NCBI GenBank assembly: GCA_951406725.2
Contig: OX597814.1
Location: 189,286,001-189,350,000 of the forward strand
DNA from: Octopus vulgaris
Lineage: Eukaryota
Direction of reading: 5' to 3'
Length of the DNA: 64,000 nt
In this document: piece by piece, positions 6,356 to 51,230 of the stretch
Position numbering within the stretch: the stretch's first letter is position 1
Layout of the letters: each line of letters starts with the position of its first letter
Translations under genes and position numbers: made by a program
The notes under the pieces: model-generated
What the model saw: only the letters and a program-made list of their open reading frames with translations
What the model was told of the DNA's origin: nothing
The model's database searches: none

Positions 6356-6558
6356 AAAGTTAATCCAAACATGAAAACACAAAGAGAAAACACAACAACG
6401 CGAGGACGTTGAGCAAAAAATAGCATTATTGGACGCTCAGGAAGGAAGGGAAGGAGGATTTAACATTTCGAGCGGAGCTCTTCGTCGGAAACATAGGAGA
6501 AGGAAAGATCCAGAGAAGGGAAGACAGGGAAAAAATCGCCAACGGTACACACGCGGTC
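6356..6558 (-). mobile_element. ~200 bp HHR-bearing non-coding unit, family A (mini-PLE/retrozyme-like)
   Basis: Homologous to 51037-51230 and 49145-49310. Abuts TA repeats. HHR core at 6458-6492: gttt CCGACGA AGAGC tcc GCTC GAAATGTT aaat. Confidence 0.7.
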
Positions 6559-6559
6559 G

Positions 6560-6780
6560 TTGTTGGGATTCAAGGGCCACGGCTATTTAAGACCTTGCCA
6601 AAACATATGAGAGGTCTACATGGAGTGGGGGTTGATGCTTTAAAGAAGCAGCTTGAACTCCTTGTGCCCAATGTCCTAGATCAGCTTATATCACAGCAAG
6701 AAACTCAAAAGAGGGCGGCGATATCAAGCTACCCCTTCACCAGAAGCCAATTACATAAGAATGGCCATTGAAAACGTGAT
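6560..6780 (+). mobile_element. Degenerate CR1/L2-group LINE 3' fragment
   Basis: Reads GFKGPRLFKTLPKHMRGLHGVGVDALKKQLELL, homologous to GFRGPQLFNILPKNLRELHGVDADVFKMKLDLFL at 21997-22242. Confidence 0.65.
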
Positions 6781-8699
6781 AGTGCAGGCGGTGTCCATCA
6801 TGGGTAGAGTTTTGGGGCTGAACGCATAAAAGAATAAAAGAACACATACATATATTTACATACGCATGTGTGTGTGTGTGTGTGTGTGTGTGTGTGTGTA
6901 TACGGCTTATATGCTGACGTTCTACATGAATAGCGCGGCAGAGCAACACTGATATACTGAAACCAATATCCAGAAATCATGTAATATGGACGATAAATGA
7001 TGCCCGTGTCAAGCGTTCCTTTGGAAACTACCCTATATTTTATTAGAAAGTCTCGCAGTACCTCCTAGAAAATATAACTGGAGACAAAATAAAGCAGCAA
7101 AACTCTTCTTTCTGTGTTTGTCGAACCAATTAGCTTTTAAAAAAAGGCCCACCTCCCTGGCGTGCAAATGAGCCTTTGACCTCACTTAGAAAATGGCAGT
7201 GTGAAAACAGTATGTAATTTTTTCAGTATATAGGCAGACGGCCATATTACAAATACTAATCATGGTATAATTCTCCACAACAAATATGACAATAGCGTAT
7301 TAATTACAGACATAGCACAACTAGCCAAATTGGCATAATGTTGTAGAGAAGAGAATTGAAAAGCAAAGTAATTACACCCACCTAAACGTTGAATCAAATC
7401 ATTATATGTCATTTAAGCAAAGGGAATATGATTCCATTTGTAACTGGCACAAATGGACTGATACACAACTATGTCGATAAAACCATTTACAGATTTACCT
7501 ATATAGACGAAGGTACATTTCAAAAATAAGTTCTGTAGACATTTTTATGGTATTCTCTTAACATTTTTGAAACTTTGCGAAGTCTTTCGTACTCTGAATA
7601 TTCTCTTTAACGCTTGATATCCTGAAAAAAAAATCTTGTTTATTTTCCATTGAATATTTGATGCCAACCTTGAATATTTCTGAGTATATATTAGGAGATG
7701 TCTTCTATTCATGGCTCAACAAAGTAAATTCTCGATGCATTTTAAAGCTACGTATTATAATAAAAGTCCTTTCCAATATAGACACAACACCCGAATTTTC
7801 GGGGAAGTGGCAAAGTCGATTACATCGAGTCCAGTGCTCAAGAAGGATGTAAAGAAAAGTCGATCTCGGCGGTATTTGAACACAAACCGGGACGAAATTC
7901 CGATGCCGGTGATGATGATGACGACAATGACGACGACGACGAATTAGCGCAAATGAGGCACAGGTAGGTGAGAGAGATGTACAATCTGAGAGGTTACAAG
8001 AGGCAGTAAAAATTTCGATAAGTAATGGGCAAAATGCGCAGTGAATAATACATAAAGTATACAGTCAAAAGGAATGAATTCTTTTATCAAAGAAGAGTAA
8101 GAAACAATGTAAAAAAAAAACAAGAAAAGAAGCGATACCTACATGCCGCACGTATGCGGATGCGCCATTTTGTATGCGTATGTAAGAAATACATGAATCA
8201 ATGGAACAAGAGAGAGGGGGGAGAGGGGGAAAGAAAGGATGACGGAGGAATTTTTAATTAGGATATCACGACCTTTGTTATTATAATATTCTTTAGTTTA
8301 CCCTACAGTCCAGTTCGATCAACGATTTAAGGTTTGAAACCATTCAAGTTTCAATTTCGCTCTCTTACTCTTTCCTTCTTCTCCCTCCTTTTCTTCTTCT
8401 CTTTCATCATCTTCTTCTCCATCATCTTTTTCTTCTCCTTCTCCTTCTTCTTCTTCTTCATCTTCTCCATCTTCTACTTCTTCTCCTTCTCCATCTTCTT
8501 CTCTCATTAACTCTTAATCTTCCTCTTTTTCCAGTTCCTGTTTTCCACTTACTCACCTGATTGATTCCCCACCCACCTAAGGGAAGGATAATATGTGGAC
8601 CCTTAAAATAGTGAAGCTGATTGTTATCAACCTTTACATTGTAACCTTTACAAAATTGCCTTTCTGACATAGAAAGAATATCTTTTTAAAATTATTAAC

Positions 8700-9290
8700 A
8701 GTAGTAGTAGTAGCAGTAGTAGTAGTAGTAGTAATTGTTGTTGCTGTTGTTGTAGAAATAGTTGATGTAGTAGTAGTAGTTGATGTACTAGTAGCATTAG
8801 CAGTAGTAGTAGTAGTAGTAATCGTAGTCGTTGTAGTAGTTGGTGTACTAGTAGCATTAGTAGTAGTAGTAGTAGTCGTTGTAGTAGTTGATGTACTAGT
8901 AGTAGTAGTAGTAGTAGAGGTAGTAGTAACAGCAGCTGCAGCAGCAGCAGCAGCAGTAGTATTAGTAATAGTAATAGCAGCAGCAGTAGTAGTAGAAGTA
9001 AGTAGTAGAAGTAAGTAGTAGTAGTAGTAGTAGTAGTAGTAGTAGTAGTAGTAGTAGTAGTAGTAGTAGTAGTAGTAGTAGTAGTAGTAGTAGAAGTAGT
9101 AGTAGTAGTAGTAGTAGTAGTAGAAGTAGTAGTAGTAGTAGTAGTAGTAGTAGTAGTAGTAATAGAAATAAGTAGTAGTAGTAGTAGTAGTAGTAGTAGT
9201 AGTAGTAGTAGCAGCAACAGCAGCAACAGCAGCAGTAGCAGCCACAGCAGCAGTAGTAGTAGTTATTAAGGCTGTTGTTGTTGTTGCTAC
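8700..9290. repeat. (AGT)n/(AGC)n compound microsatellite
   Basis: Direct reading. Confidence 0.95.
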
Positions 9291-9569
9291 CAGAACGCCC
9301 TTAGTGGTAAATGATTAATTAAGCTAATAGTGAACCAGTGAAAGCAGCAAAATGCTAGTTTCATTCGAAGTAGCGTACGTACGGTGCTGGCTTTCTCGTT
9401 CATATGACTACTATAGTTAGATGCATTGCGTTCAAGTGACAAGAGAAATTGTACTAAAACACGGTTGAGGTAAAGTTTAGAAACAAAACCCCACAGTTTT
9501 AAAGTTAAGTGTGATAATCTTTTCCACTATGAGCACGTAGCCTGAAATTCGAGAGAATAATAATCCGAT

Positions 9570-48690: not shown

Positions 48691-49144
48691 ATATATATAT
48701 ATATATATGAGGAGGAGACCCCCTTCGGTCATGAATGACCATGGGATTGCACCTAGAAAGTTACCCTCCGAGACACAAGTCCGGGCAAGGTTGTTTATGG
48801 AAGACCAGCATTTGCCCATGCATGCCAGCCTCCCCTCTCCACACCTGTGATATTATCCAAAGGAAAGGCAAAGGCCGATACATCTAACATTAATCCTAAC
48901 AGGAGCAATGAGAAATAAAGTGTCTTGCTAAAGAACAAAACACAAAGTCCGGTCTGGGAATCGAACTCACCGCCTCACGATTAAAAACTAGACGTTCTAA
49001 CCACTGAGCCATGCGCCTTCACATATATATATATATATATATATATATATATATATATATATATATATATATATATATATATATATATATATATATATAT
49101 ATATATATATATATATATATATATATATATATATATATATATAT

Positions 49145-49310
49145 TCAAAATGTGACCGCGTGTGTACCGTTGGCGATATTTTTCCTCAGTCTTCCCTTCC
49201 TTGAGCTCCGCTCAAAACGTTAAATCCTCCTTCTTTCTTTCCTTTGCTGAGCGTCCAATAACACTATACTTGTTCTACGTCCTCGCGTTGTTGTGTTTTC
49301 ATGTTTGGAT
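49145..49310 (+). mobile_element. Family A unit with an internal deletion removing the HHR 5' core
   Basis: gtgaccgcgtgtgtaccgttggcgat...cttcccttccttGAGCtccGCTCaaaacgttaaatcc. Confidence 0.7.
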
Positions 49311-50364
49311 CTATCTATCTATCTATCTATCTATCTATCTATCTATATATATATATATATATATATATATATATATATATATATATATATATATAGTTCA
49401 AATTTATAGAAAAAAGACGAGGTGAGGGAACAACAAGCTGTGTTTGACGCTCGGGAAGAATGCAAAGGTCTTTGACCTTTTGAGCCTAAGCTCTTCGAGA
49501 AATGGGCTTACAGGGAAAAAAATGAAGAGAAAACGAAAAATAAAAACGGAGAGAAGGAAATACGTAGGGATAAGCATTCAACATGATGATAATATATATA
49601 TATATATATATATAGTAAAGAGGTTTGCAATAATATATAACTGAGATTTTAAGTGTATATAAATTGGCATCTGTAGACACGTGTGTATGTGTAAATATGC
49701 ATCATTTATATCTATAAGTTCTTAACTACTTCTATCGTAATTGTGTACTCACACACTTGCTCACATCTAAGCATGCTCGAGCAAGAATATGTATATGTAT
49801 GTGTATATGTAAGTATGTGTGTTGTAAATCGTACACAAGATAAGAAATAAGAACCTGCATTAAAACGGCAGAAATATACACATAGATAAATAAACATGCT
49901 GAAAGGCATGCATATAGTTATATATATATATATATATATATTATATCTTTTTCTCATGACTCGTGATTACTAAATCACTTCAAAGAGAAGACCAAAATCA
50001 GCAAACCTTAACTTGTTTGAATTTTCTCTCATATATTATGGTATTACTTATCACAGATCCACCCTTTGATAGAAAGCCTTAAGTTTCCAAGGCCAATTGT
50101 ATTTGAAGCTATTTCCAGCTGCTCTTGCATTCGCCTCTACTACGATTCTAGACGTAAAATGTATTTCTTTCATCTCGATTTATTATGTGTGTATGTGTCT
50201 ACATATATACATATATATATACATATATACATACATATACATACATATATACATACATATAAAATACATATATACATACATATACATACACACACATACA
50301 CACACACACACACATATATATATATATATATATATATATATATATATATATATATATATATGGT

Positions 50365-50665
50365 AGAGGCGCAATGGCCCAGTTGTTAGGGCAGCGGACT
50401 CGCGGTCGTAGGATCGCGGTTTCATTTCCCAGACCGGGCGTTGTGAGTGTTTATTAAGCGAAAACACCTAAAGCTCCACGAGGCTCCGGCAAGGAGTGGT
50501 GGCGGTCCCTACTTTACTCTTTCGCCACAACTTTCTCTCACTCTTTCTTCTGTTGGCCTGCTCGCTTAGCCAGCGGGGTGGCGTCATTTGAAGGCTAAAA
50601 CAATGCGAAGCGCATTGTGACCAGCAATGTGTAGCAACATCTGATATTCTGATCGGTCACGTGAT
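50365..50665 (+). mobile_element. SINE family 2, full length
   Basis: Reverse complement of 63065-63375. Confidence 0.85.
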
Positions 50666-51036
50666 ATATATATATATATATAGAAGGCGCATTGTTCAGT
50701 GGTGAGAGCGTCGAGCTTACGATCGTGAGGTTGTGAGTTCGAATCGGTATGTATGTATGTATTTGTATGTCTATGTTTGTCCCGTTGGTGTGTCTACGTC
50801 CCCCTAACTTAACGGTTCAGCAAAATGAGACTGATAGAATAAATAAGTCATGGGGCCGATTTATTCGACTAAAGGCGGTTTTCCAGCATGGCCGCAGTCA
50901 AATGACTGAAACAAGTAAAATAATAAAAGAATGCACACACACACACACACATATATTCGAAATGTTAGACTTTTTCAATTCCCGAGCGTTATACTAATAC
51001 ATTATATATATATATATATATATATATATATATATA

Positions 51037-51230
51037 GTTAATCCAAACATGAAAACTCAACAACGTGAGGACGTGGAACAAGTATAGTGTTATTGAACGC
51101 TCAGGAATGAAGGAAAGAAGGAAGGTTTAACGTTTCGAGTGGAGCTCTTCGTCAGAAACATAGGAAAAGGAAAGATCCAAAGAAGGGAAGACGGAGGGAA
51201 AAAATCACCAACGGTACACACGCGGTCACA
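51037..51230 (-). mobile_element. Family A HHR-bearing unit
   Basis: Homologous to 6356-6558. Its 3' end abuts (TA)n. Confidence 0.75.
51125..51159 (-). ncRNA. Minimal type I hammerhead, canonical core
   Basis: gttt CTGACGA AGAG ctcca CTC GAAACGTT aaac. Stem I gttt/aaac, palindromic stem III ACGT, GUU site. Confidence 0.75.

What the first reader, a model, noticed from the sequence alone, without database searches (positions are those of the whole stretch)
6356..51230. Family A: ~200-nt non-coding hammerhead units with a fixed 5' end (retrozyme or mini-PLE candidates)
Seen: three dispersed copies (6356-6558 minus, 49145-49310 plus, 51037-51230 minus) all begin at about GACCGCGTGTGTACCGTTGG, end at TGTTTGGAT next to TA-rich repeats, and have no ORF. 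The 51125-51159 copy has a canonical CUGACGA...GAAACGUU core. Known: metazoan non-LTR retrozymes are short HHR-containing units thought to be mobilised by PLEs and processed to circular RNAs. Inference: shared ends argue for a discrete non-autonomous unit rather than random 5' truncation. Caveat: two of the three 5' ends abut other elements.
Basis: partly seen in the sequence, partly recalled or inferred. Interest (0 to 1): 0.75.

Follow-up and report, generated by a model that had tools for sequence, protein, structure and literature searches.

The report
Penelope end-repeats with a sharp boundary
These three repeats are loose end-pieces of a common Penelope-type jumping gene that carry a self-cutting-RNA motif; thousands of such pieces stop at the same point, likely because copying starts inside the element's RNA and runs off its front end, which offers a way to test how these elements build their end repeats.

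Summary
The three copies are real but are not a separate retrozyme. They are solo pseudo-LTRs (pLTRs) of a Neptune/Nematis-type Penelope-like element (PLE) in a 2.8-Gb, probably octopus, genome. The same ~200-nt unit flanks the RT + GIY-YIG ORF on both sides in single loci. An exact 25-nt core occurs 8,163 times. The 5' end is a true boundary but not fixed: of 90 copies taken in genome order, 54 stop in a 17-nt window, 27 are shorter and 9 run further. The 5' pLTRs of full-ORF copies mostly run through it (9 of 10). The hammerhead is the known minimal PLE type; only copy 3 keeps all core bases, and 5' ends do not cluster at the cut site. Best model: reverse transcription starts at the pLTR 3' edge and runs off a transcript that begins at the boundary (inferred; no TSS data). 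Rare head-to-tail dimers and one trimer look like nascent retrozymes. New member of a known kind.

The parts
6357..6558 (-). Copy 1: solo pLTR; 5' end inside the boundary window; core variant CCGACGA...GAAATGTT (6492-6458)
   Evidence: sister to ORF-linked L242 in the tree (99/75)
49143..49310 (+). Copy 2: solo pLTR starting at ATTCAAAATG after (TA)n; 31-nt deletion removes the CUGANGA box, so the ribozyme is predicted dead
51037..51231 (-). Copy 3: solo pLTR ending GGATTAAC then (TA)n
   Evidence: groups with ORF-linked L104 and L108
51125..51159 (-). Minimal type I hammerhead motif: helix I GUUU/AAAC, CUGACGA, extra A, helix II GAGC/ACUC (one mismatch), GAAACGUU with palindromic AACGUU and no loop 3; predicted cut between 51129 and 51128
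   Evidence: sequence; descriptor from PMC4209133; monomer fold not better than shuffles, z 0.07
28545..28698 (+). Fourth, diverged relative (sister family), 5'-truncated just upstream of its CCGACGA...GAAACGTC core, between TA tracts

Best explanation
The three copies are solo pseudo-LTRs of a Neptune/Nematis-type Penelope-like retrotransposon, likely made when its reverse transcriptase primes on a nicked (TA)n tract, starts at the 3' edge of the pLTR and runs off the 5' end of a transcript that would begin at the shared boundary. Shown: the unit is both the 5' and the 3' repeat of an element built unit - 250-nt 5' UTR - ORF (RT, CxxxxCxxC linker, GIY-YIG) - long CA-rich 3' UTR - unit; the element's own sequence after the unit is TTTATATA, which matches the (TA)n target; most copies stop at one boundary about 200 nt upstream. 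Inferred: the boundary is the start of the pLTR promoter's transcript, so initiation on the 5' pLTR gives a short 'strong-stop'-like cDNA that integrates as a dead-end solo. Full-length and partial-tandem copies would need a template that continues past the boundary (read-through tandem RNA, a hammerhead-ligated circle, or transfer of the short cDNA to the 3' pLTR). Jumps of the run-off cDNA to other places would give the mini-elements and rare unit dimers seen. The hammerhead is a weak, dimer-dependent PLE motif and does not set either end. Identity as a PLE pLTR about 0.95; the run-off mechanism about 0.6.
For: Parent: 8 of 10 long loci carry endonuclease end, 3' UTR and unit in order; L290, L291 and L292 carry unit-ORF-unit; Pfam RVT_1 E 1.5e-5 and GIY-YIG E 0.002-0.009, below curated cut-offs; 469 homologues, the best 50-56% identical, nearly all listed ones with RT-related Pfam domains. 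Unit-to-5'UTR junction: 54 exact matches, control 0. 3' ends: 64 of 70 copies with exact GGATTAAC go on into TATATA within 14 nt. Boundary: 54 of 90 end at -10..+6 (A of ATGTGA = +1), 27 shorter, 9 longer; 29 of 50 in a second, partly overlapping sample; 2,401 genome matches to a 22-mer, 57 when 19 upstream bases are added. The boundary holds in subfamilies with different upstream sequence. Two template classes: 8 pass and 54 stop among solos, 9 pass and 1 stops among 5' pLTRs of full-ORF copies, Fisher p 2.5e-6, which a fixed RT stall would not predict. Joints use the boundary: 13 of 28 mini-elements and 6 TA-free head-to-tail loci. Literature: internal promoter inside the Penelope pLTR (PMC2377424, passages); internal RT initiation, with hammerhead cleavage dispensable in vitro (PMC11167929, parts 1-2 of 4).
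Against: No transcription start was mapped: the only runs were contigs of guessed RNA status, which cannot show starts. The Inr-like TCATTC is in only some subfamilies; others read TCTTTC. Ends spread over about 17 nt and the window was chosen after seeing the data. AT/ATGTG microhomology to the target probably shapes the fine peak at -1..+1. Full-ORF copies may pass simply because they come from more processive events. In 6 of 28 mini-elements the joint lies upstream of the boundary and in 9 downstream of it. The 90-copy sample is the first 35 Mb of one chromosome, needs an exact core 25-mer, and holds one duplicated pair.
Confidence: 0.6

Rival explanations
1. Solo units propagate themselves as a SINE-like non-autonomous element: an internal promoter transcribes the solo, the flanking (TA)n stands in for the start site, and the PLE protein copies it in trans.
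For: Solos outnumber 5'UTR-linked copies about 150 to 1 (8,163 against 54 exact matches; different patterns, so rough). Penelope's promoter is internal (PMC2377424). pLTRs alone mobilised a host gene in trans in Adineta (PMC3846280, passages). One perfect 219-nt trimer exists (L295).
Against: In a 99-row tree the 30 linked copies are spread through all subfamilies and strongly supported solo-only groups are two-row pairs only (short alignment, 15 of 95 branches well supported). The recurring 9-nt and 13-nt deletions occur in several subfamilies and in linked copies, as slippage would give.
Confidence: 0.17
2. The boundary is an RT pause or microhomology hot spot on a long template, so solos are ordinary 5' truncations that pile up at ATGTG next to TA/TG targets.
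For: The modal ends (-1..+1) join flank and element through AT; a minority of copies form a continuum up to more than 1.4 kb into the ORF; 5' truncation is typical of PLEs (PMC8557442, passages).
Against: Other AT/TA sites in the unit stop few copies (0.5% per nt). 9 of 10 full-ORF 5' pLTRs pass the same sequence. Upstream sequence differs among subfamilies, yet the boundary stays.
Confidence: 0.17
3. A true non-LTR retrozyme: tandem units are transcribed, cut by the hammerhead into monomers, circularised and re-inserted.
For: A hammerhead motif is present; 6 loci have TA-free head-to-tail joints and one is a trimer with the same joint twice.
Against: No direct head-to-tail tandem among 90 copies; 8 joint matches genome-wide against thousands of copies; motif is minimal, not canonical; 64 of 90 copies carry U4C, which lowers activity in vitro (PMC3088659, passage); 0 of 50 5' ends at the cut site; the unit is an integral pLTR.
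Confidence: 0.06

Closest known systems
Neptune/Nematis-type EN+ Penelope-like elements (PMC8557442, passages)
   Same: RT, CX2-5CxxC linker, C-terminal GIY-YIG; pLTRs from partial tandems; inverted 5' copies; optional 3' tail; (TA)n targeting; hammerhead in the pLTR
   Different: 3' UTR is long (about 1.2-2.5 kb) and CA-repeat rich; the optional tail is about 116-142 nt rather than 30-40; most copies are solo pLTRs with one sharp 5' boundary. Neptune versus Nematis was not resolved by phylogeny.
Minimal hammerheads (min-HHR) of metazoan PLEs (Cervera and de la Pena 2014, PMC4209133, parts 1-2 of 4)
   Same: Extra base between 9 and 10.1, G10.1-C11.1, palindromic 15.2-16.2, no helix III, short helix I; thousands of single dispersed motifs
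   Different: Helix II is 4 bp with a 3-nt loop, against 7-8 bp in Schistosoma; U4C is the majority state; activity untested.
Poseidon PAc of Anolis (Frangieh et al. 2024, PMC11167929, parts 1-2 of 4)
   Same: RT start inside the RNA at two sites that define the tail; AT-rich targets; no ends at the hammerhead cut site
   Different: Here the main start site (TTTATATA) matches the (TA)n target and lies about 250 nt before the ATG; in PAc it is non-homologous and inside the ORF.
Metazoan non-LTR retrozymes (PMC7229834, passages; bioRxiv 10.64898/2026.07.22.740005, part 1 of 5)
   Same: Size about 200 nt, non-coding, type I hammerhead, PLE link
   Different: Retrozymes are head-to-tail tandems with canonical hammerheads and circular RNAs; this family is dispersed, minimal-type and part of a coding PLE. 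Only rare dimers and a trimer resemble them.

Membership tests
EN+ Penelope-like element | Single ORF with RT and C-terminal GIY-YIG endonuclease | tested here: met
   all copies examined are broken by stops or frameshifts; Pfam scores below curated cut-offs
EN+ Penelope-like element | pLTRs from partial tandem arrangement flanking the ORF | tested here: met
   Unit on both sides in L290, L291, L292; 14 of 54 junction loci continue into the ORF
EN+ Penelope-like element | Inverted 5' copies and optional 3' tail | tested here: met
   Inverted joints in L239, L248, L263, L268, L280; 11 of 54 junction loci end 52-142 nt past the unit in TA repeats
Neptune/Nematis clades | CX2-5CxxC linker between RT and EN | tested here: met
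   CSRSRCNTC-type motif ahead of LIYCIKC...LYVGQT
Neptune clade | Placement by RT/EN phylogeny with named references | not tested
   No named reference sequences among the 120 listed hits
PLE min-HHR | Core boxes, extra base after A9, G10.1-C11.1, palindromic minimal helix III | tested here: met
   Copy 3 and family alignment; 64 of 90 have U4C, 18 of 90 CTGACGA
PLE min-HHR | Self-cleavage as dimer or with protein help | not testable with these tools
   No assay possible
Non-LTR retrozyme | Head-to-tail tandem units, each with a hammerhead | tested here: not met
   0 of 90; 8 joint matches at 7 loci genome-wide for one pattern, one of them TA-spaced
Non-LTR retrozyme | Canonical type I hammerhead with helix III and loop-loop contacts | tested here: not met
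   No helix III or loop 3; 4-bp helix I
Non-LTR retrozyme | Independent of a coding element in cis | tested here: not met
   Unit is the pLTR; no solo-only lineage
Non-LTR retrozyme | Monomer linear and circular RNAs | not testable with these tools
   Only contigs of guessed RNA status were available

The most novel reading that the evidence does not exclude
The pLTR works like a retroviral R region: RT starts at its 3' edge on the 5' end of the transcript and makes a 200-nt strong-stop cDNA, which either integrates (the thousands of solos), transfers or runs round a hammerhead-closed circle (full-length partial tandems), or re-primes at the start site (head-to-tail dimers and trimers). The last outcome would be a direct route by which non-LTR retrozymes are born from PLE pLTRs, caught here at the dimer and trimer stage.
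Probability: 0.3. Interest if true: 0.7.

Novelty: new member of a known kind. Interest (0 to 1): 0.42.

Why it matters
How PLEs regenerate their pseudo-LTRs is stated as unexplained in PMC2377424, and the role of their hammerheads as unclear in PMC8557442. This family leaves thousands of fossil products with two fixed coordinates (RT start and a 5' boundary) and several joint types, which gives exact predictions for 5' RACE and in vitro TPRT. It also warns that ~200-nt hammerhead repeats with shared ends, easily annotated as SINEs or retrozymes, can be solo pLTRs. The element class and ribozyme type are already known.

Tried and rejected
Rfam scan: only microsatellite-driven miRNA hits among the 150 of 199 listed. 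The repeat finder was swamped by microsatellites. The first genome search was biased to full-length hits, so I replaced it with position-ordered pattern samples. Idea that the unit abuts the ATG directly (note 2): wrong, a 250-nt 5' UTR lies between. The unit upstream of the ORF in L101 and the two extra units in L290 are TA-separated later insertions, not pLTRs or tandems. Intron removal as the cause of mini-elements: joints vary and no AG acceptor precedes the boundary. Hammerhead cut as an end: 0 of 50. Monomer folding of the core: not significant. Expression: no RNA holder on record; four guessed-RNA contig sets cover the unit far more than the UTR or ORF start and show two low-depth unit-to-5'UTR joints, which genomic copy number and genomic mini-elements would also give; whether the ORF is expressed stays open. 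Rows dropped: L192 (chance alignment) from the Fisher count; L235/L236 counted once; 24 short solos left out of the tree. Earlier-findings searches by sequence and by words gave nothing; the 'relatives' hit was unrelated.
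Full report
Observation. The three copies are present as described: 6357-6558 minus, 49143-49310 plus, 51037-51231 minus, 80% mean column identity, no ORF over 23 aa. Only copy 3 has all hammerhead core bases, with one mismatch in helix II; copy 1 has CCGACGA and GAAATGTT; copy 2 has lost the first box. A fourth, diverged and 5'-truncated relative lies at about 28545-28698. The genome has 2.8 Gb in 227 contigs; octopus is my inference from its size and about 30 large contigs, and earlier scan notes say the same.

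Finding the parent. Two of the 30 first loci shared sequence upstream of the supposed 5' end. An 81-nt query from there had 1,317 candidates, and homology among 30 such loci ran from about 30 nt to more than 1,450 nt upstream through a CA-rich tract. Beyond it lies the end of a GIY-YIG ORF. Of 10 long loci, 8 carry endonuclease end, 3' UTR and unit in order. Pfam gives RVT_1 (E 1.5e-5) and GIY-YIG (E 0.002, 0.009), both under the curated cut-offs; a 543-aa frame has 469 homologues, the best 50-56% identical. The CxxxxCxxC linker before a C-terminal GIY-YIG marks Neptune or Nematis (PMC8557442, passages). All ORFs examined are broken.

The unit is the pLTR. Upstream of the ATG lies a 250-nt 5' UTR preceded by the same unit, joined as GGATTAAC-TTTATATACCGCAC; this junction has 54 exact matches, control 0. 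L290, L291 and L292 read unit-ORF-unit. Solo copies end at the same GGATTAAC and go on in TA repeats (64 of 70 with the exact motif). So the main RT start is the element's own TTTATATA, which can pair with a (TA)n primer (inference). Of the 54 junction loci, 14 continue into the ORF, 1 has a large ORF deletion, 11 stop 52-142 nt into the 5' UTR and turn to TA repeats (10 of them at 116-142; a long tail, often on inverted insertions), and 28 are joined to a second unit. A second start site defining a tail is what was shown for PAc (PMC11167929).

The 5' boundary. An exact 25-nt core has 8,163 matches, control 0. I took the first 90 of the 100 listed, in genome order. With subfamily-matched references, 54 end between -10 and +6, 27 are shorter and 9 longer, one of these a chance alignment. 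End hazard is 8.9% per nt in the window, 0.5% downstream, 0.8% upstream. A second sample chosen by a 3' pattern (the first 30 listed plus 20 later ones not in the first sample) gave 29 of 50 in the window, 2 upstream, none at the predicted cut site. Genome-wide, a 22-mer has 2,401 matches, and 57 (2.4%) when 19 upstream bases are added; mutation accounts for part of that fall. All three window copies end in the window, which is unsurprising at 60%.

What makes the boundary. Among copies that reach it, 8 of 62 solos pass, against 9 of 10 5' pLTRs of full-ORF copies (Fisher p 2.5e-6; with all junction loci 10 of 18, p 5e-4). The same sequence is therefore a stop on one class of template and not on another. 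Penelope of D. virilis has an internal promoter inside its pLTR (PMC2377424, passages). I infer that the boundary is the transcript's 5' end and that solos are run-off products of initiation on the 5' pLTR. Joints fit partly: of 28 mini-elements 13 join at the boundary, 6 upstream and 9 downstream, many with microhomology; 5 of 30 ORF-start loci join ORF +175-230 to the unit start; 6 loci join a unit's 3' end to the boundary without TA, and L295 is a 219-nt trimer with the same joint twice. Against: no start was mapped, the Inr-like TCATTC is not in all subfamilies, processivity could bias the full-ORF class, and the window was set after seeing the data.

Is it a non-autonomous lineage? A tree of 66 solos, 30 linked copies and the 3 window copies puts linked copies in every subfamily; copy 1 pairs with linked L242, and copy 3 sits with L104 and L108 (rough supports). 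No direct head-to-tail tandem occurs among the 90 (three loci have a same-strand copy 620-1,030 nt away, one more at about 900 nt). Self-propagation of solos is not excluded but has no positive sign.

The ribozyme. The motif fits the published min-HHR of metazoan PLEs, which works poorly and only as a dimer in vitro (PMC4209133, parts 1-2 of 4). 64 of 90 copies read CCGACGA and 18 CTGACGA; U4C is reported to lower activity in vitro while allowing viroid infectivity (PMC3088659, passage). The cut site lies mid-unit, so the template was uncut or re-ligated (inference).

Novelty. PLE pLTRs, min-HHRs, solo pLTRs (PMC3846280, passages) and Penelope-like elements in octopus (PMC13282606, passages; no mention of ribozymes in its main text) are known. 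Seven paper searches listed no paper whose title or abstract start describes a sharp pLTR boundary with a strong-stop reading; most subscription papers, Repbase and supplements were not seen. The scan had already read similar motifs in this genome as PLE ends in TA tracts. Verdict: new member of a known kind, with a testable mechanistic footprint; interest 0.42.

Noticed in passing
window 44995-47603: Inverted pair with 840-nt arms 99% complementary, each arm holding the C-terminal GIY-YIG part of a different PLE; looks like a young two-armed PLE insertion.
   Followed up: partly
window about 22900-23020: Palindromic stretch with CTGATGA...GAAAC boxes on both strands, a different hammerhead-like family; a similar sequence lies in L016.
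   Followed up: no
window 6559-6770 plus: 3' end of a LINE-like ORF (GPRLFKTLP...) abutting copy 1 in the opposite orientation; CR1/L2 type by recall.
   Followed up: partly
window about 51232-51615 minus: Element starting TAAACTAGCAG...CCCGGCGTTGCTCGGG and ending TATATAAAGAT, abutting copy 3; resembles Helentron-associated (HINE/DINE) elements by recall.
   Followed up: no
L295 (G000:C2:134627271-134627520): Head-to-tail trimer of the 219-nt unit with the same joint twice; candidate nascent retrozyme.
   Followed up: partly
L200, L202, L203, L207, L228 and 28 junction loci: Mini-elements in which 5' UTR or ORF start is joined to a unit; joints differ, so they look like independent template switches.
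   Followed up: partly
L288 1380-3389 minus: 670-aa open frame of another PLE family next to a family A element.
   Followed up: no
L101 2657-3560; L290 6739-7272: Copies nested in the TA tails of other family members, showing repeated targeting of the same tracts.
   Followed up: partly
window 58822-58850 plus: Another CTGATGA...GAAAGTC motif, unrelated to family A.
   Followed up: no
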